A stretch of DNA of 64,000 nucleotides from a virus, in the IMG/VR virus record IMGVR_UViG_3300037222_000084, positions 1 through 64,000 of that record, one strand, 5' to 3'. The translations under genes and the position numbers were made by a program. Of this stretch, positions 1 through 20,555 are shown in pieces (the first letter of the stretch is position 1; the number at the start of each line of letters is the position of its first letter). The notes beneath the pieces are model-generated. The model was not told the origin of the DNA and did no database searches. It saw nothing but the letters and a program-made list of their open reading frames with translations.

Positions 1-26
1 ACTGTCTCAAAACAAAAGGGGTTCTT

Positions 27-815
27 ATGTATCAAAACAATGCAGCACGGTCTACGTCTTTCCTGCAAAATCAACCGCATGTCTCAAAAAGCGACAAGTT
101 TGTTGCAATTGAACCGGCTCAAATTGAGGCAGTTCTCAATGACCATGGGTTTGACTTGGTTCATCTCAAAACGGGACGCGCTAAGTCCGCCGATAGACAG
201 GACTTTCAGACCACAATTGCACGCTACCGTAGTCGGTCTCAATTTGAGATCAATGGGTCTCATTTTGATCTGATTTTTAAGGTGCCGCATCTTTATGGGA
301 AATTGGTCGGTGTCTTAGGCCTATTCCGTGGCGCATGCGCTAACCAATTGAACGTTGGGAAGCATTTTGAGACGATCAAAGTGGCACACTTAGCCAACCC
401 TGTCTCAGAATTAGACAGTCTCATTCCGATGCTTGTTGCACAGCAAGCGTCTCTAGTTGAGATGGTCAAAATGATGCAGGCCCGCACTGTGTCTCCAATT
501 GAGCTGGCTCAATTTGCGACAGAAGTGGCTCAAATTCGATTGGCTCAAACTGAGAATGTGTGCAAGATTTATGCCGCACCTCTTCTCAAAGTGAGACGCA
601 CTGATGATGCTGCTAGCGACTTATGGACCTGTCTCAATGTGGTACAGGAAAACCTTATTCGTGGTGGAGTAGGATATCAAACTGAGACGTTCGATATCAA
701 TAATATCAGAACGGTACGCAATTGCACCGCTCGGAATGTCTCAGAACAATCCGCTAGGGCAATTGATTTGAATGGCTCAATTTGGGACGCTGCATCCAAA
801 TTGCTAACGGCCTAA
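27..815 (+). CDS. DUF932/DUF945-family protein
   Basis: Motifs SDKFVAI..HGF, GLFRGACANQL and RRTDD..DLWTCLNVVQENLIRGG typical of the family; AAGGGG RBS. Confidence 0.75.
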   Translation: MYQNNAARSTSFLQNQPHVSKSDKFVAIEPAQIEAVLNDHGFDLVHLKTGRAKSADRQDFQTTIARYRSRSQFEINGSHFDLIFKVPHLYGKLVGVLGLFRGACANQLNVGKHFETIKVAHLANPVSELDSLIPMLVAQQASLVEMVKMMQARTVSPIELAQFATEVAQIRLAQTENVCKIYAAPLLKVRRTDDAASDLWTCLNVVQENLIRGGVGYQTETFDINNIRTVRNCTARNVSEQSARAIDLNGSIWDAASKLLTA

Positions 816-829
816 TTTGATACAGTTAG

Positions 830-856
830 GACTGCTCCAATATGGGGCAGTCTTTT
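830..856 (+). terminator. Rho-independent terminator
   Basis: GACTGCTCCA-ATA-TGGGGCAGTC hairpin followed by TTTT, just after the 27..815 stop. Confidence 0.65.
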
Positions 857-890
857 AGTGTACCAGAATGAAACAAAGGGGAGTATTAAA

Positions 891-1085
891 ATGGAACAGA
901 AGAAATCCCAATATGGGACGACTCGATTTATGGAATGCGCTCAATATTTAGTTGAATCAGAATGGGACGACTTTAAAAACTACGTATCAGAAGGGAACGA
1001 CCCATTTTGCCACATATATTCGACGGCCTATATTGCATTGCACGGTGAGGGCGATTTTGAGACGCTTTTAGGTACGATGGAATAA
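891..1085 (+). CDS. hypothetical protein
   Basis: GGGGAG RBS before ATG at 891. Confidence 0.65.
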   Translation: MEQKKSQYGTTRFMECAQYLVESEWDDFKNYVSEGNDPFCHIYSTAYIALHGEGDFETLLGTME

Positions 1086-1086
1086 T

Positions 1087-1102
1087 TGGCATAACAATTG
1101 CA
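1087..1102 (+). promoter_or_regulatory. sigma54 (-24/-12) promoter-like box
   Basis: TGGCATAACAATTGCA (GG-N10-GC), intergenic. Confidence 0.6.
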
Positions 1103-1114
1103 AGGGGTATCAAA

Positions 1115-1288
1115 ATGAAACGCGATCTCATGTTGAGACAGATTGATTATTGGCTCATAACAGCGAAATTCTATGTCTCAAAAGGAGACGGTTTCGATCA
1201 CTTAGTGTTTGACGCGCTAAATAGGGCGCAATATATAATGGATCAAATTGAGATGATGGAGTCTCCAAATGAAACAGTTAGCAAATAG
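1115..1288 (+). CDS. hypothetical protein (57 aa, absent from ORF track)
   Basis: AAGGGG RBS, ATG 1115, MKRDLMLRQIDYW...ETVSK, TAG 1286-1288. Confidence 0.6.
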   Translation: MKRDLMLRQIDYWLITAKFYVSKGDGFDHLVFDALNRAQYIMDQIEMMESPNETVSK

Positions 1289-1569
1289 TTCTAGGTGTAC
1301 CAAATTGATATGCTGTCAGATTTGCAGTGCATCGGTCGAGTCAAGTCTTGAACTAACACCGTTAGCGGTTAGTTATGGTCAAGCCTTGACGGTGTTAGGC
1401 TGTCTAGACTGTCTAAGCCTAAGCGTTAGGCATGGGTTAGGCGCGTTAGACATAAGAGCGTTAGTCTTAAATTGAGACGGTTTGCATTATTTTCTTTATT
1501 TTTCAGACTAACGCGGTTAGTCTTAATTAAGCGGTGCAATTGAGCACCGATAAAACGGGGAGTATCAAA

Positions 1570-2028
1570 ATGGGATATACGCATTATTGGTCGTTCAACG
1601 GCAAACGTGGACAAACGGCTCAAAATGAGAAGAAATATCAGAATGCGCTTAAGCAATGTGTCAAAGTGGTACAGTATTATTCTAAGACGTTTGGTGGTCT
1701 TAGTGGATACACCGCGCACGACGTATCGAAACGATACGGTGGTCTCAATGTGAATGGCTCAGAACGAGTCGGTAGTTGTGAGACGTTTGCATTCCGCGAA
1801 CACATGTCTCAAAATGAGCCGGATGCCTGTAAGACTAATCGGTGTCAATATGATACAGTCGTGACCGCGTGTCTTATCATTATGAAACAGTATCTTGGTG
1901 ACTCATTTCAAGTCGGCTCAGATGGATTCGTTTCAGATTGGGCCGATGGCCTGATTCTTGCAGAAAAAGTAACTCGTCTCAAATTGAGCATACCTGTCTC
2001 AATTGAGACCAAACGTAAGGTGGCTTAA
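1570..2028 (+). CDS. conserved phage hypothetical protein (MGYTHYW...CKT..YD type)
   Basis: GGGGAG RBS; MGYTHYW N-terminus and CKTNRCQYD motif. Confidence 0.7.
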   Translation: MGYTHYWSFNGKRGQTAQNEKKYQNALKQCVKVVQYYSKTFGGLSGYTAHDVSKRYGGLNVNGSERVGSCETFAFREHMSQNEPDACKTNRCQYDTVVTACLIIMKQYLGDSFQVGSDGFVSDWADGLILAEKVTRLKLSIPVSIETKRKVA

Positions 2029-2029
2029 T

Positions 2030-2428
2030 ATGGGACGTTCAAAATGGTCCGTGACTCGTTTTGAAACGCATCAAGGTGGGCGCTCATTTGGTCCACGCGG
2101 CAAGTATCGTTTTGAGACAAAATTGATTGCTCGTCTCGTTTATATACTGTGCCAAATTGAGGCACTGTTTACAGGTCACAGACCTTGGCTGTCTTATATT
2201 CCTACGTATTCAATTGATACAGACCTTGGCATTGATTTTGCAGATGCAGGTCAATGGAGATCGTATCATATTGAAACATCGGGTGATTCTTTTAATGAGA
2301 TGGTCGATAATGCGACTGTCTCAGAAATAGACCAAGACGGTGGCACAATTGATGCATATGGGTTAGGCGATGCACCGTCTCAAGTTGAGACAGCGTGTCT
2401 CAAGATGATAATGGATAAGGTGTTCTAA
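2030..2428 (+). CDS. hypothetical protein
   Basis: ORF packed directly after 2028. Confidence 0.6.
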   Translation: MGRSKWSVTRFETHQGGRSFGPRGKYRFETKLIARLVYILCQIEALFTGHRPWLSYIPTYSIDTDLGIDFADAGQWRSYHIETSGDSFNEMVDNATVSEIDQDGGTIDAYGLGDAPSQVETACLKMIMDKVF

Positions 2429-2463
2429 TTTAGAGCGTTTCAAACTTAAACAAAGGGGATTTT

Positions 2464-3135
2464 ATGGACTTACTGACTCAAAATGGGAAAATGAAGAAGT
2501 CGTCTCAAAATGGGATTACCAATGTGAATTGGACGATACCAGCGTTTATGTCTCAAACTGGGATTAAGACGTGTCCCAATGCGGGATTATGCGCGGTGGG
2601 CTGTTATGCGCGTCAAGGCGCGTATATGTTTGGGAATGTCAAGACAGCACACGAGGCTAAACTGGCATTGACTCAAAATGATACATTCGTTGGCATGATG
2701 GTTGCAGACATTGAGCGGTGGCTCAATAAGAGAAACACCAAACGTCTCGTTGTGAGAATCCATGATGCGGGTGATTTTTACTCCATGCAATATTTAGACC
2801 GATGGATTAAAATTATGTCTCACTTTGAGGCAGACAAACGTGTCTCGTTTTATGCCTACACAAAGCAAGTGGAGATGTTTCAAAATGAGAAAGCGCGTTT
2901 GCCTAGCAATTTTCGTGCCATATTCTCGTTTGGTGGCAAACAAGACAAACTGATTCAAATTGATACAGATTTCCATGCGCGTGTATTTGAGACAATGGAT
3001 CAATTAGAGGCAGCAGGGTATCAAAATGGGACAGACGACGATATGGTTGCAGCGTTAGGCGTATCAAATAAGATCGGCCTAATATATCATGGGACTAAGA
3101 ACTATATCAATACGAGATGGGATAAGGTGGCATGA
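2464..3135 (+). CDS. Gp88-like phage protein
   Basis: TCPNAGLCAVGCYA Cys cluster, RIHDAGDFYS and FYAYTK motifs. Confidence 0.75.
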   Translation: MDLLTQNGKMKKSSQNGITNVNWTIPAFMSQTGIKTCPNAGLCAVGCYARQGAYMFGNVKTAHEAKLALTQNDTFVGMMVADIERWLNKRNTKRLVVRIHDAGDFYSMQYLDRWIKIMSHFEADKRVSFYAYTKQVEMFQNEKARLPSNFRAIFSFGGKQDKLIQIDTDFHARVFETMDQLEAAGYQNGTDDDMVAALGVSNKIGLIYHGTKNYINTRWDKVA

Positions 3136-3557
3136 AAATTGATAAGCGTCTCAATGCGAGACATAGCGTTGGTAACACGCGCTCTAGACAGTCTAAGGGC
3201 TCTAGTGGGTTTACCACGCTATACACGCATTATAGACTTAGGGCTCTAAGGCGCGGCTATAGTTGGGACCTAACGAAGTCTCAATTTAAGACGTTTTGTG
3301 AATTGAATTGTTTTTATTGTGGCATTGAACCTAGACAGATACAGCGCGTTTACAGTAAAGAATGTACCAAAGAGGGACTTTTGAATTCTGCATATGTTTA
3401 CAATGGGTTAGACCGCGTGGATAACTCTAAGGGCTATAGCGTGGATAACTGTAAAACGTGCTGTAAAACGTGCAATAGGGCTAAGGATATAATGAGTTAT
3501 CAAGACTTTAAAGATTGGATAAGTAGAGCGTACAAAAATTTGAGCGTATCAGAATGA
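3132..3557 (+). CDS. HNH-type endonuclease
   Basis: CFYCG ... GLDRVDNSKGYSVDNCKTCCKTCNRAK. Confidence 0.8.
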   Translation: MKIDKRLNARHSVGNTRSRQSKGSSGFTTLYTHYRLRALRRGYSWDLTKSQFKTFCELNCFYCGIEPRQIQRVYSKECTKEGLLNSAYVYNGLDRVDNSKGYSVDNCKTCCKTCNRAKDIMSYQDFKDWISRAYKNLSVSE

Positions 3558-3561
3558 GACA

Positions 3562-3658
3562 TGGCACATAGTTTGCATATGCAATCGGTGTGCCAAAATT
3601 GTGGATGTATCGAATTGAAACACTGGCCGTTAGTTTGCATATTGCAAATTGCGTGTCA
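3562..3658. promoter_or_regulatory. Cluster of face-to-face sigma54 boxes
   Basis: + TGGCACATAGTTTGCA 3562-3577; - TGGCACACCGATTGCA 3595-3580; + TGGCCGTTAGTTTGCA 3624-3639; - degenerate TGACACGCAATTTGCA 3658-3643. Confidence 0.7.
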
Positions 3659-3675
3659 TATCAAAAGGAGACGGT

Positions 3676-3933
3676 ATGGAAAATCTCATATTGAAACAAG
3701 GTGATTTTGTCAAGGTCTTGGCCTTGACTGGAGACCTTAGAACGTTAGGCGTATCAAGCGGCGCGGTGTTAGTGGTCGAGACCTTAGGCCTTGACGGTGC
3801 CTTAGGCGTCAAGACGTGGCGCGGTGCCTTGACGTTAGTCAACGTTGACGGGACCTTGACCGATGCATGCCTTGACGTGGCGCGGTGTCAAGGGCCTAAC
3901 GTGGCGTTAGTCAAGGGGTTAGGCGCGGGTTAG
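3676..3933 (+). CDS. hypothetical protein with strongly biased sequence
   Basis: AGGAG RBS before ATG 3676; rich in CTTGAC/GTCAAG/TTAGGC words. Confidence 0.55.
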   Translation: MENLILKQGDFVKVLALTGDLRTLGVSSGAVLVVETLGLDGALGVKTWRGALTLVNVDGTLTDACLDVARCQGPNVALVKGLGAG

Positions 3934-4171
3934 GCGCGACCTTGACAGGCTAACCCATTGAAACGAGGCGAAAACGTCTCGTTTTGAGACAGTTTTTAGC
4001 GTTTCGAGGGGTGCTTATGGTCGCATGCATTTTTTAGCCGCGCTCAATGGCGGGGCGTTTAGGAAGTTGAGGGACCATGCCAAATTAATTTCTTAATTTG
4101 GATGTGATTATTTTGAGGCGCACCATAATCGCTCAGTGACAATTTATGTCAATGGAGATTCGTGCCAAGTC

Positions 4172-4184
4172 TAAGGTGTTGATT
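4172..4184 (-). promoter_or_regulatory. IHF-consensus site
   Basis: AATCAACACCTTA matches WATCAANNNNTTR; one-mismatch copies at 3951-3963 (-) and 4781-4793 (+). Confidence 0.45.
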
Positions 4185-4274
4185 TTATTGAGGATTTAGG
4201 GCCGTTTCAGATTGAGCTGTATAACTTTTAGATAGCATCTCATAATGAGGTGTTGTACCAATGAGGGATGAGAC

Positions 4275-4520
4275 ATGTCTCAAGACAAATTAGAACTGCC
4301 GTTAGGCGAATTGCTCAAACGTTTGCGCGATGCTGCCGATGTGAGCATTGGTCAAGGATACGTGACACAGCCATTGCTTAATTATATTAATGAGCTACAT
4401 CAACATTCTAGTGTTGGTGGTAAAGACTTAACCCATATAGCGTTTGAGCTACAACGCTTTGGACGCCTCAACTCTGAGGATATTCCCACAGTCCTGCATT
4501 ACCTCCAAAGATTCATCTAA
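4275..4520 (+). CDS. hypothetical protein
   Basis: GAGGGA upstream, 81 aa ORF. Confidence 0.55.
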   Translation: MSQDKLELPLGELLKRLRDAADVSIGQGYVTQPLLNYINELHQHSSVGGKDLTHIAFELQRFGRLNSEDIPTVLHYLQRFI

Positions 4521-4546
4521 AGACCTGCTAGGCCCATCCATTGGGC

Positions 4547-4646
4547 TGTCGCAATACTTCACACACTGTCGCAATACTGTCGCAATTGTCCCAATTAATA
4601 CAATTGGGACATTCTTTGTCCCAATACTTGTCCCAATTAATACAAC
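4547..4646. repeat. Intergenic cluster of TGTC(G/C)CAAT repeats with a palindrome
   Basis: Six direct copies and one inverted copy in about 100 bp; TTGTCCCAATTAATACAA twice; TGTCCCAATT-AATAC-AATTGGGACA hairpin. Confidence 0.85.
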
Positions 4647-4797
4647 CAAACTGTCTACGATCTTGACATTGTATAAAAGTTCGACGGGGTGGGTAAATTA
4701 TTGAAACCAATAGGGGTCTGGGCGAAAATCGTTTTTTCTGTACAACTGTTTTACAGAATCGTTTTTTTAGATGAGAGTCTTTTCAATAGGTTAGCAT

Positions 4798-4813
4798 TGG
4801 CACACGCACTGCA
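4798..4813 (+). promoter_or_regulatory. sigma54 promoter-like box heading the second early operon
   Basis: TGGCACACGCACTGCA, intergenic, IHF-like site just upstream. Confidence 0.65.
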
Positions 4814-4918
4814 TTAGTATCAAGTCACTCCTTATGTTTACGGAGTGGTGCAGAGTAGGCGGCTTGCACCATTCCGGTTTTATCTAGGGAGCAACAAACA
4901 AACGGTAGGAGTACCAAA

Positions 4919-5203
4919 ATGGGCGCTGAATTTTGTTCTACAACATTCACAGCAAAGACTTCTAAGCAAGTCAAAGAGAAACACGATGAGCTAGTTGAAC
5001 AGGCTCAATACGATCACGGACACTCTGGCTATTCTGGCTCATTCGCAGAAAGTCCTGGTGTCACCGTGTTACCAGCAGAGTTTGACAGCGTTGAAAATGC
5101 CGAAGAATACATTGACGAGAATGCAAAGAAGTGGGAAAACTCATTGGCTGTGCGTATTAAAGGCACAGATACATGGGTTATCGGTGGAGTGTTTTCGTCT
5201 TAA
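4919..5203 (+). CDS. hypothetical protein
   Basis: TAGGAG RBS; HGHSGYSGS motif. Confidence 0.7.
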   Translation: MGAEFCSTTFTAKTSKQVKEKHDELVEQAQYDHGHSGYSGSFAESPGVTVLPAEFDSVENAEEYIDENAKKWENSLAVRIKGTDTWVIGGVFSS

Positions 5204-5230
5204 TAACAAACAAACGATAGGAGTATCGTA

Positions 5231-5482
5231 ATGAAACAGCTAAGCATACAAGACATAGGCTCTATTGAAGTGGTCACTGTTCAATCTAAGGCTATTGAGC
5301 GCATCATGTGGGACCACAGAAAAGGCCAAATGATGATTAAGTTCAAGGATTCGCCAGTTTACGTCTACCCGACTGCTACGCGCTCTTTGTTTAAAGAGTT
5401 TGTGGCGTCTGAGTCTAAAGGGCGGTTTTTCTTAGCGAATATCAAGAAACAGCATGCTCAATTTTTGCGATTGGACAACTAA
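5231..5482 (+). CDS. KTSC domain protein
   Basis: SKAI..I.WD...MMIKFK..VYVY......F..FVASESKGRFF..NIK pattern. Confidence 0.8.
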   Translation: MKQLSIQDIGSIEVVTVQSKAIERIMWDHRKGQMMIKFKDSPVYVYPTATRSLFKEFVASESKGRFFLANIKKQHAQFLRLDN

Positions 5483-5833
5483 ATGACAATCGCATTCGAT
5501 GTAAAGGGTACGCTCGAAGGCCCTAAGGGTAAGTTTGTATTGGGCTTATTGCTTAAGTTGCAAGAGATGGGCCACGAGTGTGTCGTGTGGTCAGGCTCTT
5601 ACGGTTACGCGGTGGACTGTGTTGCAAAATATGGACTAGAAAACGTGCGTGCAGAATCGAAATCGGACAAGTGGTCTCGTGATGAGGCAAACTTCTACGA
5701 TGTAGCCATAGAGGACGACAGAGGTCAAACGTGGCTCGCTGCTAAGAAAATCGTTTTCGTAGATGAGTTGCCTAATGATCCTGGTGGCGTGAACAGATTG
5801 GCAGACATGATAACCGATGGAGAATTAAAATGA
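5483..5833 (+). CDS. HAD-like protein
   Basis: IAFDVKGTL, VVWSG and IEDD HAD-type motifs. Confidence 0.6.
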   Translation: MTIAFDVKGTLEGPKGKFVLGLLLKLQEMGHECVVWSGSYGYAVDCVAKYGLENVRAESKSDKWSRDEANFYDVAIEDDRGQTWLAAKKIVFVDELPNDPGGVNRLADMITDGELK

Positions 5834-6078
5834 GACGCTTAAATCGTGCTGGTTTCAAAGAGTTACGCGATGAGGCTTATAAGTCTGCTGGTATCGTGGG
5901 CAATGCGGCAGAGCGTTTTCAGACGCCACAGCTAGAGTGCGCCTATTCGTTGATGTGTGAGGGCCTTGACGCAATCGACGACCTAGGCTATAAATTGGGC
6001 TATCTCGACGCTGAGACCAATGAAGAGACGGAGCCCACCGAGGGCATTGACAGCGAAGGACAAGAAACGTTTGAATAG
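5830..6078 (+). CDS. hypothetical protein
   Basis: ATGA overlap with upstream gene. Confidence 0.6.
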   Translation: MRRLNRAGFKELRDEAYKSAGIVGNAAERFQTPQLECAYSLMCEGLDAIDDLGYKLGYLDAETNEETEPTEGIDSEGQETFE

Positions 6079-6232
6079 AATCATTTTTTTAGTAGTATTT
6101 CTAATGGGTTGTGCCGACAATGAGTTGCGTCAGTTCAACCACGAGGACAAAGAGGACTTAGACTGCTATGCCCATTATGGAGCAGAGCAGGGATACTGTG
6201 ACACGGTTTGGCACAAAGGAGTACCAAAATGA
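6071..6232 (+). CDS. small putative lipoprotein
   Basis: TTG start, hydrophobic stretch ending LMGC. Confidence 0.5.
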   Translation: MNRIIFLVVFLMGCADNELRQFNHEDKEDLDCYAHYGAEQGYCDTVWHKGVPK

Positions 6233-6414
6233 GCTGGCTGTTTTTAGTAAATACTGTTGTTTTTGCTGGGCTATACCTGATTTGGAATAAATCAGATTTG
6301 CTCAACTTCTCTCTAAAGGCTATTATGTTTGGTCTATTGGTTTTGAATGGCATTCAGTGCTACAAAGCATTTGAGGTGGATCGAGTTGAGGCAGCAAAGA
6401 GTGTGCCAAAATGA
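6229..6414 (+). CDS. small membrane protein
   Basis: AGGAG RBS, two hydrophobic segments. Confidence 0.6.
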   Translation: MSWLFLVNTVVFAGLYLIWNKSDLLNFSLKAIMFGLLVLNGIQCYKAFEVDRVEAAKSVPK

Positions 6415-6926
6415 ATACGAAACGTTTTAATAAAGGCGATTTGATTACACCTCAGAGAGGTAAGGGCGGATTTGGCGAAGTATTCAGGTTTGACTCTTAT
6501 GATTCAACGTCTAGCACAGATGGTTGGGTTATAAATAACAAGGGCGTATGCGTGAAGTGTGATTGTACGGGGATGGACCATTGTGATCCATCTGGACTTG
6601 CGATTGTGAAAACTATTTTTTCAGTTGGAGACACAATAGGTGTAAAGCCTGAATATGATAAGGATGGAAAGCACGTCAATACTCGTGGCATGATTCGTGC
6701 TATTGATGCTACCAAGTATTTCGTCCTGTGGTCTAGCGATCCCAACGGCATTCTGGTTGACTACCAGCACAATGAAGTAGATGTTATGGCTTATCTCATT
6801 CATAAGCAGGATGCACCATCAAGCGGTGGGCCGCATAACTGCGCGGACCACATGGAGTTTTGCCAGGGCTTTAGGTTCGATTATCGTTTCTGTAAAGTGT
6901 GTGGCTCAAAACATAACGCAGCATAG
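6411..6926 (+). CDS. hypothetical protein
   Basis: ATGA overlap; C-terminal CKVC. Confidence 0.65.
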   Translation: MNTKRFNKGDLITPQRGKGGFGEVFRFDSYDSTSSTDGWVINNKGVCVKCDCTGMDHCDPSGLAIVKTIFSVGDTIGVKPEYDKDGKHVNTRGMIRAIDATKYFVLWSSDPNGILVDYQHNEVDVMAYLIHKQDAPSSGGPHNCADHMEFCQGFRFDYRFCKVCGSKHNAA

Positions 6927-6934
6927 GAGATGTT

Positions 6935-7207
6935 ATGTCAGACAAAGAACGCAACGTGCGCGATGTGATAAACGATGTGAACAAGATGGCTGCTGCTGGA
7001 GTGCTCATACCACAGTATGAGGTTGAGGCTGATTCGTACATATGTTTCGTTGTGAGAAACCCTAATGGTCGCAGCATGTTGCACGCTGGGCGTATGGGCA
7101 TCTATCCAGAGGAACTGCAAAAATCGTTCCTAGGACTGTTTTTGAACGAACACATGGATAACTATAAGGTAATTGGCATCTATCAAATGTCGGAGTGGGC
7201 CAAATGA
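6935..7207 (+). CDS. hypothetical protein
   Basis: TAGGAG RBS. Confidence 0.65.
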   Translation: MSDKERNVRDVINDVNKMAAAGVLIPQYEVEADSYICFVVRNPNGRSMLHAGRMGIYPEELQKSFLGLFLNEHMDNYKVIGIYQMSEWAK

Positions 7208-7500
7208 GCAAAATCATTTCAATATTATACGAAGGAGTATTAATACGCATTGATGAGACAAGCACGCGATTTGATTGGCATTGGCCTCACACGCCCATTG
7301 GCATGGTCAAATATACGCCGCGCAAGGGCTCTAAACAGTTCCACTATGTTTATTTTGGACAGCAGGACGAGACAGCGTTAAATCTAGCTAATCGGCACTT
7401 AACCAATGAAATCGCTGAGTTACAGTCCAGAATTGAAGGTCTTAAATTGAGACTTTTTACAAAGGAAAACGTAACAAAACAACACGGTGTTGTAAAATGA
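7204..7500 (+). CDS. hypothetical protein
   Basis: ATGA overlap. Confidence 0.6.
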   Translation: MSKIISILYEGVLIRIDETSTRFDWHWPHTPIGMVKYTPRKGSKQFHYVYFGQQDETALNLANRHLTNEIAELQSRIEGLKLRLFTKENVTKQHGVVK

Positions 7501-8144
7501 GCAATGTAAATTTGGCAGACATACCATGCGAAGTACCTGACAAATTGACCGATACTAGTACGCTCGGTAGACGTGTCACAGAGATACTAAAGCGTATCAA
7601 TTTTCCCAACAGGGAACGTACCGTTATAGCGTTTGACAGCACAATGTTTGGTCTGCAAATTAGGATGCAACTTGAGGCCACAGACACGCGGACTGGTGGT
7701 CCCATATCGTTACAGCATTCGAGACAGGTCAACTCACAGATGAGCGACCAAGAGTTAGCGCGTCAAATATGCATACTCATGTCTCAAACTGCGATACACG
7801 AGTTTATGGAAAACTTTAGGTTTGACGGCGCTATCATGTTCAATCCACACGACGAAGGGCGCAATGGCATACTTTTTGATGCTGTCGCTAAGGCCGCATC
7901 GTTTCCTGAGCCTAAGGTTGACGATGGTTTTATTAAATTCAATATACCGCTGGCAGATACTTATTCCTATTCGTTTTACCACAGTAACCATAAGAAACCT
8001 AAGCCTTTACCAGACGTTGAGCCCGATCTCAAAACGTTACCACCGCTTGAGAGAGCGCGTGCGTTGAAGGAAAAGAATAAGAAAGTACAAAGCAATTTTG
8101 GTGCCAAAGACTGGCGTGCAAAACTGAGACGAGATGCTGCTTAA
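7497..8144 (+). CDS. hypothetical protein
   Basis: 215 aa ORF, ATGA overlap. Confidence 0.7.
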   Translation: MSNVNLADIPCEVPDKLTDTSTLGRRVTEILKRINFPNRERTVIAFDSTMFGLQIRMQLEATDTRTGGPISLQHSRQVNSQMSDQELARQICILMSQTAIHEFMENFRFDGAIMFNPHDEGRNGILFDAVAKAASFPEPKVDDGFIKFNIPLADTYSYSFYHSNHKKPKPLPDVEPDLKTLPPLERARALKEKNKKVQSNFGAKDWRAKLRRDAA

Positions 8145-8152
8145 AATAGTTG

Positions 8153-8180
8153 TTGCAATGCGTTTTGTTAGTGGTAGTAT
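8153..8180 (+). promoter_or_regulatory. sigma70-like promoter
   Basis: TTGCAA-16-TAGTAT with extended -10 TG. Confidence 0.4.
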
Positions 8181-8214
8181 TTACATAACGGCCTAAGTGC
8201 CAAGGGAGAATCAG

Positions 8215-8556
8215 ATGGGAAAACGTAAACGTAGAGACTATGAGTGTGGATTTACCGAGACCGTGATTGAGGCACCTAAGTTTGCCAAACTCTTGGCTCT
8301 TAACACGCTGCGATTCACAAACCGCAAAACCCTGACTGGTGAGTTTGTGTGGGGATTCGATGAAGGCTATATCGTGACCACAAACGATCCGTTGACTGGC
8401 AACTATAAACAGCCCGTCAATATGCACCTCCAAATTGGAGTAGCTGGTGACATTGGTGTTGTTGGCACAAAATCATTCCGTGATCGCGTGGCAAAATTTC
8501 TCAAGCGTAATGCGCTGAGCGCAGACTTCGACGGATCGACTCGACGTTACGTTTAA
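8215..8556 (+). CDS. hypothetical protein
   Basis: GGGAG RBS before ATG 8215. Confidence 0.6.
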   Translation: MGKRKRRDYECGFTETVIEAPKFAKLLALNTLRFTNRKTLTGEFVWGFDEGYIVTTNDPLTGNYKQPVNMHLQIGVAGDIGVVGTKSFRDRVAKFLKRNALSADFDGSTRRYV

Positions 8557-8580
8557 TTAACTCTTAACAAAGGATTTTTT

Positions 8581-8883
8581 ATGACAACGACTCAAAATGC
8601 TCTAGTTGTAAAGCGTTACGCAAACCGCAAACTGTACGATACTGAGAACTCAAAGTATATCACTTTGAAACAGATCGCTGCTGAGATCAAAACGGGACGC
8701 GAAGTGCGAGTGATGGACAATGAATCAAAACAAGACATCACAGCTACCACTCTGTTGCTGGCTCTCGTTGAGACTGAGGATGGTACTACCGAGGCTAGCG
8801 TGCTAGCAGGCATTCTACGCGCTGGAGGTTTAGCTCAATACGTGGCAGGTCTCAAGGCTAACCAACACCAGTTTTTGCCATAG
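8581..8883 (+). CDS. PhaR-like (PHB accumulation regulator N-terminal) DNA-binding protein
   Basis: VKRYANRKLYDTENSKYITL..I...I..G.EV.V.DNESKQDIT signature. Confidence 0.85.
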   Translation: MTTTQNALVVKRYANRKLYDTENSKYITLKQIAAEIKTGREVRVMDNESKQDITATTLLLALVETEDGTTEASVLAGILRAGGLAQYVAGLKANQHQFLP

Positions 8884-8891
8884 GAGATGTT

Positions 8892-9191
8892 ATGGTAACT
8901 ATTAATAAAGATATGAACATTGAATTGTCCACTGGCACGACTATTGATGTTGAGGTCGAAGTATTTGGTATCTTCGATTCTCAGTTTGGCGCAGATGCAG
9001 ACGGCAATAGAGGCGAGGGACGTTGGCTTATTGATTCTCACGGCTATTCTGTTAGCGATAACGTTTCGCTGACTGCCGAAGAAGAGGACGAACTAGATGA
9101 AAAGATTGAAGAAATTGTGTATGATGGGCAATGGGACTTCGCCAATGCAGACGACAACATCGTTGACGATGAGGGCGTTGATCTTTACTAG
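8892..9191 (+). CDS. acidic hypothetical protein
   Basis: TAGGAG RBS; FGADADGNRG motif. Confidence 0.65.
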   Translation: MVTINKDMNIELSTGTTIDVEVEVFGIFDSQFGADADGNRGEGRWLIDSHGYSVSDNVSLTAEEEDELDEKIEEIVYDGQWDFANADDNIVDDEGVDLY

Positions 9192-9675
9192 CCTGGCATG
9201 CTTATTGCTTGGATGTAATAGAGGGCTGCCGTTGCCTGCACCACAGGTTAGCATTGATCCAGTGCTGCAACCGTATGTTAACGACTTCGTTGCTGACGCT
9301 GCCTCTGTGGGCCGCACGATTGATATTAATAACCTAATCGTGCAGTTTGCGCCAGACTTAGGCAATAGCTCATTGGGCGAGACTGTGGGCGAGTGTAAGA
9401 TACAGTATTACAATGGGAATGTTTACGGCACGCCCACGATACTGATAGACAGGCCTTTCTTTGAAGGCACCGATGCGTGGTCGCGACACACTGTTATGTA
9501 TCACGAAATGGGACACTGTGTCTTATTCCGAGTGCATAGACTTGATTGGATATCGCTCTATGGTCCTGATTTGTTTCAGCATTCTATTGCATCATCTATC
9601 ATGTATCCGTATGTGGTCGCGAGTGCGGACGCTCAGATGTTCTCAAATTATTACGTATCGGAGATGTTCCAATGA
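9169..9675 (+). CDS. lipoprotein, putative zinc metallopeptidase
   Basis: Lipobox LLGC; HEMGHCVLFRVH and SIMYP (metzincin-like). Confidence 0.7.
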   Translation: MRALIFTSLACLLLGCNRGLPLPAPQVSIDPVLQPYVNDFVADAASVGRTIDINNLIVQFAPDLGNSSLGETVGECKIQYYNGNVYGTPTILIDRPFFEGTDAWSRHTVMYHEMGHCVLFRVHRLDWISLYGPDLFQHSIASSIMYPYVVASADAQMFSNYYVSEMFQ

Positions 9676-9878
9676 AGTCTAAACATGGCATGATGCTTGC
9701 AGCTATCTTTGGCTTATTCGCTGTCGCTAGCGGTCACGTACCTGTCTACCACGAGCCTAAGAAGAAGGCCCAGGACTTCACAGACGAAGAGTTAGAGGCG
9801 GTTAGGTCCTGCGCTACCAAACAGGAGCGCAAAGCAATGGTGAACGAACTACGGCGTAAATACGCTAAGAAGGTCTAA
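9672..9878 (+). CDS. hypothetical protein
   Basis: ATGA overlap. Confidence 0.55.
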   Translation: MKSKHGMMLAAIFGLFAVASGHVPVYHEPKKKAQDFTDEELEAVRSCATKQERKAMVNELRRKYAKKV

Positions 9879-9879
9879 C

Positions 9880-10353
9880 ATGGTGTATCTATTGTGTTTT
9901 AACTCCAAACTGAAACATGCTAAGCATTATATTGGTTACACTAAAACTCCAGACGGATTAGAGCCACGCATGGAAAAGCACAGAAAAGGCACTGGTTCCA
10001 AGCTGATGGCTGCTGTCGCTAAGGCTGGCATAGATTTTGTTGTCACGCGCATGTGGCCAAATGGAGACCAGACATTTGAACGTATGCTCAAAAACAAGAA
10101 GAATTCCAAATACTTATGTCCGAATTGCACGCCGAATATCAAAGCGGTACAGTACGTATTGCACGATATTGAAACGCTCCCAATTGATGCGTCGAACTCT
10201 TCGACTTTGCCTAATAGTTCGACACTTGTAATCATTGAGGATTCTTACGTAACGTCTAATCCATTGACATATCAGGCCTTCCAAGTCAACCACAGGCCCT
10301 GGCGACAGCGGCACACCGATTGCTATAGTATACCTGCAACAAGGAGTTGTTAG
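9880..10353 (+). CDS. GIY-YIG-like nuclease
   Basis: VYLL...HYIGYT...R...H..G.GS pattern. Confidence 0.7.
   Translation: MVYLLCFNSKLKHAKHYIGYTKTPDGLEPRMEKHRKGTGSKLMAAVAKAGIDFVVTRMWPNGDQTFERMLKNKKNSKYLCPNCTPNIKAVQYVLHDIETLPIDASNSSTLPNSSTLVIIEDSYVTSNPLTYQAFQVNHRPWRQRHTDCYSIPATRSC
10309..10324 (+). promoter_or_regulatory. sigma54 promoter-like box upstream of rIIA
   Basis: CGGCACACCGATTGCT about 30 nt before the rIIA ATG; 14-nt core identical to the minus-strand box at 3581-3594. Confidence 0.6.
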
Positions 10354-12471
10354 ATGAAACTAGCCGCCCACGATAATTCAATGGAGACAAACACAGAGAC
10401 GGTCTCCCAGAACTTTGGAATTGGCAATCTTGCTGTATTGATTGGCCTATTGCGTAAGAATGTGTACCAGCATCGCATTCGTACTCTCGTTCAAGAGTAT
10501 ATGTCAAATGGACGCGATTCTCAACGTGAGGCGAAAACCTCTAAGCGCATGGTCGTGAGTATTCCCAATGAGTTAAGTCCTGTGTTTAAGGTGCGTGACT
10601 TTGGTGTTGGTATCACTCCGCAACGTATGAGCGGCGTATTCCTTCAGTACGGTAACTCAACCAAACGTAAGAGCAACAAAGAAACGGGCGGTTTTGGTAT
10701 CGGTGGTAAATCTGCGTTTGCATACACAGATTCTTTCACTGTTATCTCTATCACTAATGGAGTAAAGCGTACTTATGTCGCACACTTAGGTAGCGCCAAC
10801 GAAGGTAGCATGGATTTGCTGTCTGAAGTTGAGACAACAGAAGAATCTGGTGTTGAAATTCAAGTGGCTATTAAGCCCAATGATTCTCGTGAGTTTCGTC
10901 AGTCTGTATTTCGTGCAATGTATTTCTGGGCAGATACGGAACGCCCAGAGTTACGTGGACTTAGCTCATTGACAGATCAAATCGTCCATAAGCCTGGCCT
11001 TATGATTGGCAAAGAGTTAGAGATCAATGCAAATCCCATTCCAGATTTTATCCAAATGGACTATCACGCAAAATGCCTATTAGTTATTGATGGTATCCCC
11101 TATCCCGTGGGCGAAGATTTGATCGAGAAAATCCCAAATATGGAAAGTCTTTTGGAGCGACTTGTCTCAAAGGCGATCATCCACATTGGCAACGGTGTTA
11201 TCGAAGTCGCTATGTCTCGCGAACAAATTGCTGACAGCCCGTTTACTCTTGAGGCAATGGGCGACTTGGCTAAGACAATGGAGAATAGCCTTAAGTCTCA
11301 CATTACTACGATTTTCAAACAGGCTAAGACCAATGCTGAATGGATTAAGGCATTCAAAGAACTCTCTAAGTTTGCGAATGTTGACGATTATTCTAAGTTT
11401 GGTGACTATTCGATTGAGCGTAACTCAATCCAGTCAACGAAGTTTGCAGACATTGAATGCACACACGTTAGCCTTCGCACCAAGCGACGCGCTAAGAATG
11501 CCTCGCTAGAGCGTGAGACTGGACGTTTCATCACGCTGGATAACGTTGACCACGTATTCGTTTGTGATCTAACTGAGCCAGTAGTGACTCAAAATAAGAG
11601 AATGCGCGAGTACATGGAGCGCACGAATCGCATGTCAATGATGCTCATAAATGCGACAGAGAAGAAAATCGCAGACCCTAAATGGGTACGCCCTGCGCAA
11701 GTATCTGGACAGCCTTTAGTTATGGCTCCCATGATTGTGTCTCTGACATTTAAGGACAGCAAGAAGGTGTTGGCAAAAATCACTGCCGACTTCAACGCTA
11801 AGAACCTGTCTACGCTGCCCTATACGCCCACTGTGCGTATTCCGAAGGCTAAGCGTGATAGGACCAAAGAGATGTTCACGATGCACGAGAGCACTGGTAG
11901 TGGCAAATCACCAAAGACTACCACCATTGAGACTGTGCAAGCTACCTCAGATATGTATTACTACATTCCGTTCAAGCAGTACGACAAATTCGAGAATGAA
12001 CTCAACGACTTGTTCCATTATATGGATAAACAAAAGATTACACTATGCGCTATGACTGAGGATAGTATCAGTATGGTACAGGGTTGCAAACAGTTCAAGT
12101 CGTATACGGAATGGAAAACCAATTTTAAGCCAGATGCTAAAACGCTGGCACGCATGAAGGGCTCTAAGGCAAAGAACTGTAAGCATGTGAATTTGCTCAA
12201 GAGATCGAAAGAAGCTATCAAGGATAAGCATGTGGCACTGATGTTGCAAGAGTACAAGAACAACGTGATTGAGAGCGACATTGTACCAAAAACGATTTTG
12301 GATTGGTGTAAAGACGATCTGGCTCATTTTGTGGCAGAAGATGAGAAGTTGACAAAGCTTCTGAAAGAAGTATATCCTTTAGTTGGCGCATTGGAAAACG
12401 CTTACAACGTTACCACTGAGCATGTGGATGAATTGATTGTGTATATTAACGCTAAAAGCAAAGGGAGATAA
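10354..12471 (+). CDS. rIIA: RIIA-like protein (N-terminal GHKL ATPase)
   Basis: EYMSNGRDS, VRDFGVGI, STKRKSNKETGGFGIGGKSAFAYTDSFTV; followed by rIIB-like gene. Confidence 0.88.
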   Translation: MKLAAHDNSMETNTETVSQNFGIGNLAVLIGLLRKNVYQHRIRTLVQEYMSNGRDSQREAKTSKRMVVSIPNELSPVFKVRDFGVGITPQRMSGVFLQYGNSTKRKSNKETGGFGIGGKSAFAYTDSFTVISITNGVKRTYVAHLGSANEGSMDLLSEVETTEESGVEIQVAIKPNDSREFRQSVFRAMYFWADTERPELRGLSSLTDQIVHKPGLMIGKELEINANPIPDFIQMDYHAKCLLVIDGIPYPVGEDLIEKIPNMESLLERLVSKAIIHIGNGVIEVAMSREQIADSPFTLEAMGDLAKTMENSLKSHITTIFKQAKTNAEWIKAFKELSKFANVDDYSKFGDYSIERNSIQSTKFADIECTHVSLRTKRRAKNASLERETGRFITLDNVDHVFVCDLTEPVVTQNKRMREYMERTNRMSMMLINATEKKIADPKWVRPAQVSGQPLVMAPMIVSLTFKDSKKVLAKITADFNAKNLSTLPYTPTVRIPKAKRDRTKEMFTMHESTGSGKSPKTTTIETVQATSDMYYYIPFKQYDKFENELNDLFHYMDKQKITLCAMTEDSISMVQGCKQFKSYTEWKTNFKPDAKTLARMKGSKAKNCKHVNLLKRSKEAIKDKHVALMLQEYKNNVIESDIVPKTILDWCKDDLAHFVAEDEKLTKLLKEVYPLVGALENAYNVTTEHVDELIVYINAKSKGR

Positions 12472-12473
12472 TT

Positions 12474-13430
12474 ATGATTCCGTTTCTGAAAACCGAAGGT
12501 TCTGTGACGCTGCACTACAATGGCAAAACCGCTACAATCGCTAAGGGGGATGCTCGATTTGATAAAGTCCTGTTAGCGATTCGCGAAAATCGAACTGCCG
12601 ATGTAATCGAGTTGGCAGACAATGATTTGTACTTCACCAAGCAAGGCTTGAAGGTGCAAGACGGAGTGCTGCAACTTGAAGGTGAGGATATGCCTCTCGA
12701 ATTGTCACAGCGTATTCTGGGCTATAAAGAGGAAAACCTGCCCATTACTTCATTGCTGGCATTCTGGGCAAACCTTAAGCAAAATCCTTCGTTTAACTCG
12801 CGTGCTATGCTGTTCAAGTTTCTTGAGAACAAAGGCCACAGTATCACTGAGGATGGTCACTTCTGTGGCTATCGCGGTGTGACCTCAGACCTCAAGGATC
12901 GCCACAGCGGTAAGTTCGACAATAGCCCTGGCTCTGTGTGTCAAGTGCCACGCGAGAGCGTTGACGACAATCCTAACAATACGTGCTCGTATGGTCTGCA
13001 TGTCGGTGGCTACGAGTATGCTAAGGACTTCGGTCGCGGTGGTAAACTCGTATTGGTCAAGGTAAACCCCAAAGACGTGGTGGCAGTACCAAACGACTAT
13101 AACGGTCAAAAGATGCGCGTATGCCGCTTTGAAGTGCTTAAAGAGGCTACTGACATTCTCGACAAGAACGTGGTTGCAGCCGATGGTGGAGACTACGACG
13201 ATGAAGTGGAGTTTGAATTTGCCGACTTCGGATTCGACGATGAAAACATTTGCGAAGGTTGCGAAGAAGACATTGGCGATGAGACAGCGCCTTGCGCAGT
13301 AGCTCCTAAGCCTAAGCACAATTTGCTGAGCCCTAAGCGCAAGAAAAGCACTTATAAGAACAACCATGCAAAACGTGGGCCAGATGGCAAATTCATTCCT
13401 AAGAAGAAGAAAGCACGAAAGGCTAAGTAA
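12474..13430 (+). CDS. rIIB: RIIB-like protein
   Basis: FW.NL..NPS, ITEDGHF.GYRGV, VDDNPNNTCSYGLHVG, VKVNPKDVVAVPNDYNGQKMRVCRFEV. Confidence 0.88.
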   Translation: MIPFLKTEGSVTLHYNGKTATIAKGDARFDKVLLAIRENRTADVIELADNDLYFTKQGLKVQDGVLQLEGEDMPLELSQRILGYKEENLPITSLLAFWANLKQNPSFNSRAMLFKFLENKGHSITEDGHFCGYRGVTSDLKDRHSGKFDNSPGSVCQVPRESVDDNPNNTCSYGLHVGGYEYAKDFGRGGKLVLVKVNPKDVVAVPNDYNGQKMRVCRFEVLKEATDILDKNVVAADGGDYDDEVEFEFADFGFDDENICEGCEEDIGDETAPCAVAPKPKHNLLSPKRKKSTYKNNHAKRGPDGKFIPKKKKARKAK

Positions 13431-13838: not shown

Positions 13839-13895
13839 CCTATGATAAGTTTTACATACACCGTGGGTTTAAGTTACCCACAGAAAGAAGTTTTT

Positions 13896-17986: not shown

Positions 17987-18183
17987 GACGCAAAGACGCA
18001 GTTGAATTATTGAGAGTGATTCTCCAGGAATGGGACGGTAGCCTTATTGACACAAGGGCTGCTAGTAAAATTCTGAGCAAGATCCAGAAACAAATTGGTA
18101 TGTTGCCTCCTGATCGCTTGTCGCATTTGCCAGCGCCATGTGAGATAGCCTACGAGTGGGACACTAAAATACGGAGTAAGTAA
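17983..18183 (+). CDS. hypothetical protein
   Basis: ATGA overlap. Confidence 0.55.
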   Translation: MRRKDAVELLRVILQEWDGSLIDTRAASKILSKIQKQIGMLPPDRLSHLPAPCEIAYEWDTKIRSK

Positions 18184-20311: not shown

Positions 20312-20555
20312 GTACACAGTCAGAACCCGTGGTGGAGACCGTACACACGAGAGAGACGTTGTGTGTGAGGAACATCGAATAATTGAAGGTATTGTTTATT
20401 TTTTGAATAAAGGGAATACCTGGCATTATTGCTGTGCATTGTCAAGCCTGATTGACATGGAAAGTACAGGATACGTTGAGCCTGTCAAGGTTGAGAAGCC
20501 TGGGCAAGTGGAACACATAGAAACAGTTTTACCTAAGGAGCACTCAAATGTCTAA
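20295..20555 (+). CDS. hypothetical protein (paralog of next gene)
   Basis: Shared KY..R..GG, FL....W.Y.C....L.D.E. Confidence 0.6.
   Translation: MAQKFKYTVRTRGGDRTHERDVVCEEHRIIEGIVYFLNKGNTWHYCCALSSLIDMESTGYVEPVKVEKPGQVEHIETVLPKEHSNV

What the first reader, a model, noticed from the sequence alone, without database searches (positions are those of the whole stretch)
1..4290. Dense array of 15-bp palindromic sites written into the coding DNA of the early region
Seen: GT(C/A/T)TC-N5-GA(G/T/A)AC with an A/T-rich spacer occurs about every 100 bp or closer (e.g. 116, 236, 402, 583, 674, 860, 1107, 1125, 1175, 1261, 1464, 1562, 1723, 1806, 1842, 2104, 2263, 2377, 2502, 2670, 2817, 3018, 3148, 3546, 3607, 3683, 3976). 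Sites fall inside unrelated ORFs in different frames and across start codons, biasing proteins to words such as SQN, YQN and FET. By eye the array disappears after about 4.7 kb and probably extends left of the window. Established: sigma54 enhancer-binding proteins bind inverted repeats of this size (e.g. NtrC TGCACC-N5-GGTGCA). Inference: a kilobase-scale enhancer or sponge for a dimeric DNA-binding protein, or a coating/anchoring platform that protects or pulls in first-injected DNA.
Basis: partly seen in the sequence, partly recalled or inferred. Interest (0 to 1): 0.9.

Follow-up and report, generated by a model that had tools for sequence, protein, structure and literature searches.

The report
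Phage early module saturated with operators
A block of small early genes in this uncultured peat phage carries about one copy per 50 bases of a 15-base mirror-symmetric DNA word, most likely docking sites for a paired DNA-binding protein; two distantly related phage groups share this block of genes and sites, but the binding protein and its purpose remain unproven.

Summary
A matrix trained only on relatives finds 82 sites of T-GTCTCA-WWW-TGAGAC-A in window 1-4300, against 1.2 in shuffles, and 11 in the 74 kb beyond 13 kb. Sites lie in all three reading frames and exceed synonymous-codon shuffles threefold. The two arms vary independently in 468 sites, so this is a double-stranded site for a dimer, not a hairpin. 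About half the sites keep their place between orthologues, and synonymous positions in the arms are conserved. The array marks a movable block of genes (DUF932, GP88, a 152-aa ORF). That block occurs in one clade of ~170-kb Mx1-like phages and in an unrelated ~118-kb lineage, and is absent from 17 closer relatives. In a sparse relative the same site sits at about -58, -43 and -82 of sigma70-like and FliA-like promoters. All 4 complete site-bearing genomes encode a small Fis-family HTH protein, against 3 of 18 site-free records, and the site has Fis-type architecture. No binding was tested. The sigma54-enhancer and first-injected-DNA readings are not supported. The scan had already noted this motif array in another phage (e1-5849352). 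An untested note (e1-5270909) calls the same palindrome a Bdellovibrionales operator.

The parts
1..4270 (.). Dense part of the palindrome array: 82 sites of T-GTCTCA-WWW-TGAGAC-A, median spacing 41 bp, cut at the left by the end of the contig.
4271..13000 (.). Low-density tail of the same site: about 23 sites, 1-5 per kb, against about 0.15 per kb further on.
   Evidence: histogram.
27..815 (+). DUF932 gene carrying 20 sites. It is one of three genes that travel with the array.
1570..2028 (+). 152-aa ORF of unknown family carrying 11 sites. It travels with the array. Its homologue in the array-free phage G009 has no sites.
2464..3135 (+). GP88-family (PF17338) gene carrying 13 sites. It travels with the array.
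858..1288 (+). Two small ORFs (858-1085 and 1115-1288) carrying 6 and 4 sites.
2030..2428 (+). 132-aa ORF carrying 9 sites.
3132..3557 (+). HNH endonuclease-like ORF carrying 3 sites.
1107..1121 (.). Example of a site at a translation start: the ATG of ORF 1115 is motif positions 9-11. The same phase is seen at window starts 891, 1269, 1570 and 2030.
2377..2391 (.). The only site in the window that matches GTCTCA-N3-TGAGAC without a mismatch.
3958..3990 (+). Terminator-like hairpin plus T run at the end of the dense part. It contains site 3976.

Best explanation
Each 15-17-bp word T-GTCTCA-WWW-TGAGAC-A is a binding site on double-stranded DNA for one homodimer of a sequence-specific helix-turn-helix protein, most likely of the Fis/NtrC (HTH_8) type. 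In a sparse relative the site is an ordinary upstream promoter element. In this phage and its array-bearing kin, selection has multiplied it to about 100-200 copies over a 5-11 kb movable block of early accessory genes (DUF932, GP88 and a 152-aa ORF, among others). Sites are placed wherever the coding sequence tolerates them, including on start codons. The function therefore depends on the number and density of sites. When occupied, the block becomes a high-capacity sink or a protein-coated domain. That domain either times or shuts off the block's transcription, or it concentrates or withdraws the regulator. Candidate binders are the phage's own 65-98-aa Fis-family protein, found in complete relatives but outside this contig, or a host regulator of the same family. 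Shown here: the reality of the sites, their symmetry, independent arms, conservation, mobility of the block, promoter positions in the relative, and co-occurrence with the HTH_8 gene. Inferred: protein binding, the family of the binder, and the effect on transcription.
For: Enrichment and codon controls support real sites. In 468 sites from five phages, Watson-Crick pairs between mirrored positions equal the count expected if the arms were independent (for example 285 against 295 +/- 6, and 366 against 368 +/- 3), and the degeneracy of the two arms is mirror-symmetric. Folding energy equals that of an arm-swapped control, and 48.5% of sites do not fold at all. Of 181 and 147 sites in the two members of the orthologue pairs, 84 share the same aligned place. 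Third codon positions with an identical amino acid are identical in 334 of 526 cases in the arms, against 552 of 1087 outside. The four dense-array phages form one capsid-protein clade (support 100/99) nested among array-free kin. A second lineage, with capsid protein only 30% identical, carries the same sites on the same three genes, which are 62-68% identical in G037. In G018, 14 of 14 strong sites are intergenic. They are centred at about -58 of sigma70-like promoters and at about -43 and -82 of ATAAG-N15-CCGATA promoters. An HTH_8 gene scores over Pfam's cut-off in 4 of 4 complete site-bearing genomes, against 3 of 18 site-free records. Its nearest solved relatives are NtrC-family DNA-binding domains, ZraR and Fis. 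The site is a 15-bp core bounded by G (381 of 468) and C (349 of 468), with an A/T-rich centre and T/A enriched just outside. These are the stated features of high-affinity Fis sites (PMC4784862, passages read).
Against: No binding was tested. HTH_8 proteins with nearly the same recognition helix occur in site-free phages G005, G016 and G031. G018's HTH_8 protein has a different recognition helix but the same sites. None of 80 metagenome loci with HTH_8 homologues has the palindrome at 1 mismatch or fewer within 2.5 kb. No strong site lies beside the phage HTH_8 genes. The five partial site-bearing contigs, this one included, show no HTH_8 gene. No other phage gene co-distributes with the sites. 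Fis sites usually have a pyrimidine-purine step at +/-(3-4), whereas here the CA/TG step is at +/-(2-3). The fixed phase on start codons is not required by a DNA-binding model and is explained here only as cheap placement.
Confidence: 0.55

Rival explanations
1. Host-operator mimic. The palindrome is the operator of a host regulon of Bdellovibrio-like predators, and the array soaks up or recruits the host's own regulator. The phage HTH_8 protein is irrelevant, or it is a competitor that has only the DNA-binding domain.
For: Two distant phage lineages use the identical word. No phage gene other than HTH_8 co-distributes with the sites. A tail-spike-like ORF is shared only by the dense-array phages G001 and G004. 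G018 promoters of the form ATAAG-N15-CCGATA match the Bdellovibrio attack-phase FliA consensus TTAAG-N16-CCGATA (PMC3627812, passage read). The nearest Atlas cluster of the phage HTH_8 protein is a 77-aa Fis-family cluster whose commonest phylum is Bdellovibrionota (a lead only).
Against: I could not reach any Bdellovibrio genome, so the host side is untested. The host of these phages is unknown: capsid-bearing contigs sit in genome bins of three different phyla, and those bins show no enrichment of the site.
Confidence: 0.25
2. Kilobase-scale enhancer for sigma54 promoters, bound by an enhancer-binding protein.
For: Sigma54-like -24/-12 boxes are enriched in the early regions of G000 (10 on the sense strand, control 1) and G001 (9). 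HTH_8 is the DNA-binding domain of such activators.
Against: Neither Sigma54_activat nor Sigma54_DBD was found in 4 phage records. The palindromes have no preferred distance to the boxes, and the conserved boxes at window 4798 and 14948 have none within -250 to +100. G004, L251 and L257 have arrays with 1, 0 and 0 sense-strand boxes. G009 has boxes but no array. Boxes inside the array lie so close to the ribosome-binding sites that a transcript starting there would miss them.
Confidence: 0.07
3. RNA-level signal in early transcripts: a hairpin or a nuclease or translation-repressor target. This would explain the fixed phase on start codons.
For: 29 of 72 starts carry ATG at motif positions 9-11. 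All array genes lie on one strand. The dense part ends at a terminator-like hairpin.
Against: There is no compensatory change between the arms. Folding energy equals that of the arm-swapped control, and about half the sites have no fold. In G018 the sites lie upstream of promoters, outside transcripts.
Confidence: 0.06
4. Recombination or mobility signal. Dispersed palindromes promote exchange of the block and shuffling of its genes, or they are targets of the block's HNH endonuclease.
For: The block has moved between lineages whose capsid proteins are 30% identical, while its own genes stay 62-68% identical. Gene content inside arrays turns over. An HNH gene lies in the array.
Against: Mobility does not need 100-200 sites inside genes. 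The HNH gene is not among the genes shared by the arrays. Promoter-linked placement in G018 points to transcription.
Confidence: 0.05

Closest known systems
17-bp dyad repeats of Cluster O mycobacteriophages (TGTTCGG-N3-CCGAACA; PMC4351075, passages read)
   Same: Both have 7-N3-7 geometry and tens of copies per phage genome. Some copies lie inside ORFs near their ends. The binder and the function are unknown in both.
   Different: Corndog has 34 copies spread over the whole genome, with invariant arms. Here there are 80-140 degenerate copies within 5-11 kb, mostly deep inside genes and on start codons, and confined to one movable block.
Stoperators of Cluster A mycobacteriophages (PMC9283540, abstract as shown in the search listing)
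   Same: Both are many binding sites for one regulator spread through transcription units. This is a precedent for control away from promoters.
   Different: Stoperators are asymmetric, are bound by a monomeric immunity repressor, and belong to temperate phages. The sites here are symmetric, far denser and intragenic, and no repressor or lysogeny genes were looked for or seen.
High-affinity Fis sites and Fis/NtrC-family HTH_8 domains (PMC4784862, passages read)
   Same: Both have a 15-bp core bounded by G and C, an A/T-rich centre and T/A just outside. A small HTH_8 protein is encoded by every complete site-bearing phage.
   Different: The letters at +/-3 to +/-5 are much more specific here (TCTCA). 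The pyrimidine-purine step is shifted by one position. No binding data exist.
FleQ box of Pseudomonas, GTCaNTAAAtTGAC (as printed in PMC6120874, passage read)
   Same: Both have outer GTC...GAC letters around an A/T-rich centre. FleQ is a Fis-type HTH activator that acts at more than one promoter class.
   Different: The FleQ box is 14 bp, not 15, with other inner letters. The resemblance was recalled first and then checked in print. It is a lead only.
Earlier finding of this scan, e1-5849352
   Same: It reports the same GTCTCA-N3-TGAGAC array in a ~118-kb phage, probably the G037 lineage that I reached independently.
   Different: That note treats one phage. Here the block is shown in two lineages, is absent from close kin, and has a promoter-linked sparse form.

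Membership tests
Fis/NtrC-type (HTH_8) binding site | 15-bp core bounded by G at -7 and C at +7 | tested here: met
   G at position 1 in 381 of 468 sites and C at position 15 in 349 of 468. The rule is from PMC4784862.
Fis/NtrC-type (HTH_8) binding site | A/T-rich centre (-2 to +2) | tested here: met
   Position 6 is A in 391 of 468 sites and position 10 is T in 366 of 468. Positions 7-9 are A or T in 75-90% of 92 anchored sites.
Fis/NtrC-type (HTH_8) binding site | Pyrimidine-purine step at +/-(3-4) | tested here: not met
   The consensus has T-C at positions -4/-3. The CA/TG step lies at +/-(2-3).
Fis/NtrC-type (HTH_8) binding site | Bound by a Fis-family dimer | not testable with these tools
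sigma54 upstream activator sequence (enhancer) | Sites at a set distance upstream of a -24/-12 promoter | tested here: not met
   The distance distribution is flat, and the conserved boxes have no sites nearby.
sigma54 upstream activator sequence (enhancer) | An AAA+ enhancer-binding protein is available | tested here: inconclusive
   None is encoded in 4 phage records. The host is unknown.
Cluster A stoperators | Asymmetric site oriented with transcription | tested here: not met
   The sites are palindromic with mirror-symmetric degeneracy.
Cluster A stoperators | Bound by the phage immunity repressor of a temperate phage | not tested
   No search for an integrase or an immunity repressor was made.
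Cluster O type dyad repeats | 7-N3-7 inverted repeat in tens of copies per phage genome | tested here: met
   The 15-bp core, with T before it in 39 of 92 sites and A after it in 34 of 92 and 37 of 64, has this geometry. The sequence, density and localisation differ.
RNA hairpin or RNase III-type signal | Base pairing kept by compensatory changes | tested here: not met

The most novel reading that the evidence does not exclude
The DNA of a swappable phage 'takeover cassette' is itself the effector. About 100-200 copies of the operator of a host regulon (that of Bdellovibrio-like predators) are written through its genes, so that one infecting genome, and later its replicas, capture the host's Fis/NtrC-type regulator. 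A phage-encoded protein consisting of the DNA-binding domain alone competes at the same sites. This would be transcription-factor hijack by site titration, acquired independently or by transfer in two unrelated phage lineages.
Probability: 0.2. Interest if true: 0.85.

Novelty: new variant of a known kind. Interest (0 to 1): 0.65.

Why it matters
Arrays of many operators are known in a few phages, but their purpose is mostly unsolved. This one has about one site per 50-70 bp, inside genes, on start codons, and with measurable constraint on synonymous codons. It shows that selection for binding-site number can reshape protein-coding sequence over kilobases. The block is portable between distant phages, has a sparse promoter-linked ancestor-like form, and has a concrete candidate binder of 65-98 residues. 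The question is therefore directly testable with gel shifts, DAP-seq and recoded reporters. If the host-operator reading holds, it would be a clear natural case of a virus taking over a host transcription programme by titrating a regulator with its own DNA.

Tried and rejected
The RNA hairpin or cruciform reading was rejected. The sigma54 enhancer reading found no positional link and no consistent co-occurrence. There is no helical or 3-bp periodicity in site spacing, only a small excess at 15-16 and 25 bp.

Myxococcus phage Mx1, the nearest named relative (capsid protein 52% identical), has no such sites (8 against control 8) and no other localised 6-mer array apart from tRNA-like words. The exact-palindrome detector was too insensitive and found nothing even in G000. 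The array-free relative G005 has no substitute array.

Phylogenetic profiling was run with G001 and G018 ORFs. The apparent shared gene is a lipoprotein with collagen-like repeats and a PA14 domain, so it is a low-complexity match. An 85-aa ORF at the array's end is missing from G002 and G018. Pfam and PHROG scans of 20 array-linked ORFs gave no DNA-binding domain. PDB sequence searches with the three block proteins gave nothing below E = 0.03.

For the host, capsid-bearing contigs turned up in genome bins of Flavobacteriaceae, Planctomycetaceae and Melainabacteria. Those three bins show no excess of the site, so I read this as mis-binning. The strong ribosome-binding sites also argue against Bacteroidota; this rests on my own knowledge.

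Sequencing runs: no RNA holder was listed. The holders are peat and permafrost metagenomes.

Literature: 0 papers for 'Myxococcus phage Mx1' plus 'genome'. Six idealised motif strings found only 2 unrelated papers. There was no mention of the word in three Bdellovibrio papers that I searched by passages. The supplementary promoter tables of PMC3627812 and the FleQ-site figure of 10.1101/2021.08.29.457346 might bear on the host-operator reading, but I did not open them because supplements are closed.

The palindrome hits upstream of the capsid gene in L054, L055, L064 and L065 lie in a repetitive scaffold-gene stretch, and I set them aside as chance. A Fisher-type figure for HTH_8 co-occurrence (about 0.005) is my own hand arithmetic, not a call.

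Full report
WHAT THE WINDOW IS. The window is the first 64 kb of an 86,893-bp IMG/VR viral contig that CheckV rates 53% complete. It encodes rIIA, rIIB, a tail sheath, a major head protein and a NAMPT. The head protein is 52% identical to that of Myxococcus phage Mx1, a 169.6-kb genome. At least 66 IMG/VR contigs carry relatives of this head protein, many of them 150-177 kb long. The DNA is held by peat and permafrost metagenome runs. Position 1 is an assembly break and not a genome end. A 34.9-kb public contig covers window 27-8000 and continues about 5 kb further left.

The whole contig has 14 matches, against 0 for the reversed pattern.
- GTCTCA is the most locally enriched 6-mer of the contig: 22 copies in 4.3 kb against 14 in the other 82.6 kb.
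- Against the consensus GTCTCA-N3-TGAGAC, 37 of the 46 sites with 2 mismatches or fewer lie in 1-4300.
- A 19-column matrix trained only on relatives gives 82 sites in 1-4300, against 1.18 +/- 1.09 (maximum 5) in shuffles. It gives 23 more sites up to 13 kb and 11 in the remaining 74 kb.
- Within 7 ORFs there are 66 sites, against 21 +/- 2.8 after synonymous shuffling and 1.2 after codon-order shuffling. All three frames are used.

ANATOMY OF THE SITE. Sites anchored on one perfect arm show the other arm, an A/T-rich 3-bp spacer, and T before and A after the 15-mer. In 468 sites from five phages the two arms have mirror-image degeneracy, roughly R-T-M-Y-C-A. Watson-Crick pairing between mirrored positions is exactly what independence of the arms predicts. 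RNA folding energies match an arm-swapped control, and 48.5% of sites have no fold. This is the signature of two half-sites read separately on duplex DNA by a dimer. It is not the signature of a hairpin. Spacing has a median of 41-45 bp and no helical periodicity.

A POSITIONAL RULE I DID NOT EXPECT. In five arrays, 29 of 72 starts of the SD+ATG type have the ATG at motif positions 9-11, in the form GGAG-TATCA-WWA-TG-AGAC. In controls the figure is 2 of 84. The same holds in three arrays of a second lineage: 12 of 22, 8 of 19 and 7 of 35. I read this as cheap placement. There is no coding constraint upstream of the ATG, second and third codons are tolerant, and the G that ends the ribosome-binding site serves as position 1. 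It remains partly unexplained.

CONSERVATION.
- The GP88-family protein of the window led to three relatives with the same array: G001, G002 and G003.
- In the complete 175.8-kb G001 the array starts at a divergent junction near 47.8-48.9 kb. It is dense from 51 to 59.3 kb, lies wholly on rightward genes, and stops 5 kb before rIIA.
- G004 (168.8 kb) has 130 sites at 137-146 kb beside rIIA.
- Between orthologues, 84 of 181 and 147 sites occupy the same aligned place. Synonymous third positions are identical in 63% of cases in the arms, against 51% outside.
- The homologue of the 152-aa ORF in the array-free phage G009 has no sites. At the aligned places it differs both in amino acids and in synonymous codons.

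DISTRIBUTION.
- Of 24 further clade records scanned, only G004 has the array (52 against control 2). G018 has a faint excess (11 against 5). The rest match their controls.
- On a head-protein tree of 23 rows, the four dense-array phages form one clade (support 100/99) nested among array-free kin. The tree used only the larger records that I had scanned, so small contigs were left out. G003 has no head gene on its contig.
- Neither Mx1 nor G005 has this array or a substitute.
- An exact 16-letter start-region word then found three contigs of a different lineage: G036, G037 and G038. G037 is 117,954 bp, has terminal repeats and is rated complete. Their head proteins are only 30% identical to the window's.
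- These contigs carry 21-23 sites with 1 mismatch or fewer, against control 0, clustered in about 5 kb. The sites lie on homologues of the same three genes: DUF932, GP88 and the 152-aa ORF. In G037 these are 62-68% identical to the window's.
- The array with its genes is therefore a movable block.
- In G037 the array lies 25 kb from the nearer contig end.

A SPARSE, PROMOTER-LINKED FORM. In G018 (head protein 71% identical), all 14 sites of 13 bits or more in 168 kb lie at 30.8-44.3 kb, in intergenic cassettes.
- Five cassettes have a sigma70-like promoter (TTGCAT or TAGCAT, 17 bp, then TATATT or TATACT) with the palindrome centred near -58.
- Four cassettes have ATAAG-N15-CCGATA with two palindromes centred near -43 and -82 (these positions are my count from the printed sequences).
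- These are the positions typical of activators; that comparison rests on my own knowledge.
- The second promoter type matches the FliA consensus TTAAG-N16-CCGATA reported for 92 of 140 attack-phase promoters of Bdellovibrio bacteriovorus (PMC3627812, passage read).

WHO BINDS.
- No sigma54 activator or sigma54 gene is present in 4 phage records.
- A Pfam HTH_8 (Fis family) match over the cut-off occurs in G001 (a 71-aa frame), G004 (68 aa), G018 (115 aa) and G037 (98 aa). That is 4 of 4 complete site-bearing genomes.
- Among 18 site-free records, 3 have such a gene: G005, G012 and G016. The five partial site-bearing contigs, this one included, show none.
- In G001 and G004 the gene lies 8-11 kb from the array, in the divergent leftward gene cluster.
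- A profile of these proteins finds NtrC-family DNA-binding domains, ZraR and Fis among solved structures. Atlas look-alikes are small Fis-family proteins, the first cluster being commonest in Bdellovibrionota, and the C-terminal domains of sigma54 activators.
- The site has the published architecture of high-affinity Fis sites: a 15-bp core bounded by G and C, an A/T-rich centre and T/A at +/-8. The pyrimidine-purine step is displaced by one position.
- The three dense-array proteins share the recognition-helix words VKT-x-YNKL. The site-free G005 and G016 have VKT-x-YNH(L/V). This is a thin, untestable difference.

EVIDENCE AGAINST THE HTH_8 CANDIDATE. G018's recognition helix differs, although its sites are the same. 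G031 has a 52%-identical homologue and no array. None of 80 metagenome loci with homologues has the palindrome. No strong site flanks the phage genes. No other phage gene co-distributes with the sites.

SIGMA54. Sigma54-like boxes are enriched in the early regions of G000 and G001, as another note on this genome says (e1-6126403). They do not track the array, however. G004, L251 and L257 have arrays with 1, 0 and 0 sense-strand boxes, and G009 has boxes without an array. Palindromes show no preferred distance to the boxes, and the conserved TGGCAC-N5-CTGCATTA boxes have none nearby.

EARLIER NOTES OF THIS SCAN. Note e1-5849352 describes the same motif array in a ~118-kb phage, probably the G037 lineage. 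So the scan found this before, on other DNA. Note e1-5270909 says the same palindrome is an operator before 120-150 genes across Bdellovibrionales, with an unknown binder. I could not test that claim, because no route to those genomes was open. Only the phage-side hints above agree with it.

VERDICT. The array is real, is under selection and is portable. It is best read as a very dense set of dimer-binding sites, probably of the Fis/NtrC type, laid over an early accessory block. The likely action is through site number: a sink, a protein coat or a timer. The identity of the binder (phage HTH_8 or host regulator) and the sign of its effect remain open. It is a new and extreme variant of the multi-operator arrays already known in phages.

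Noticed in passing
window 1087, 2227, 2691, 3562, 4798, 9194, 9686, 12233, 14948, 18281 (+ strand): Sigma54-like -24/-12 boxes: 10 on the sense strand, all below 18.3 kb, against 1 in the reversed-sequence control. The form TGGCAC-N5-CTGCATTA at 4798 and 14948 recurs in G001 at 60031, 63301 and 70638, in otherwise diverged spacers. Boxes inside the array lie only a few bases before the ribosome-binding sites, so they may not be promoters.
   Followed up: partly
window 3562-3595: Two sigma54-like boxes face each other across a shared TGCATATGCA centre.
   Followed up: no
window 4720-4770; L008 15650-15700: Direct repeats of AATCGTTTTT lie about 30-80 bp upstream of the conserved sigma54-like box, in both G000 and G001.
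   Followed up: no
G018 41468, 42719, 43354, 44262; window 1528; L251: FliA-like promoters (ATAAG-N15-CCGATA) occur in early regions: 4 in G018, 1 candidate before the ORF at window 1570, and 5 on the sense strand of L251. They match the published attack-phase consensus of Bdellovibrio, which hints at the host.
   Followed up: partly
window 1300-1530 and 3700-3960: Clusters of the words GTTAGGC and CCTTGAC, with small GCG-loop hairpins. One cluster lies in a spacer and one lies over the 85-aa ORF at 3676-3933.
   Followed up: no
window 4550-4650: Repeats of TGTCGCAATA and TGTCCCAAT, with a 10-bp-stem hairpin at 4587-4611, in the spacer after the array. They look operator-like.
   Followed up: no
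window 13842-14585: Predicted lipoprotein with collagen-like Gly-X-Y repeats and a PA14 domain, within the early region.
   Followed up: partly
G001 172930-175311 (locus L109 2930-5311): A tail-spike-like 793-aa ORF is shared by the dense-array phages G001 and G004 (52% identical) and is absent from G005, G008, G009 and Mx1. This suggests that the array-bearing phages share a host.
   Followed up: no
window 18183-21227: A BCS1-like AAA ATPase, a Thg1-like tRNA-His guanylyltransferase and a SpoU-type methylase lie in a row.
   Followed up: no
L134, L135, L136: Contigs carrying this clade's head protein sit in genome bins labelled Flavobacteriaceae, Planctomycetaceae and Melainabacteria. This is probably mis-binning of phage DNA.
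   Followed up: partly
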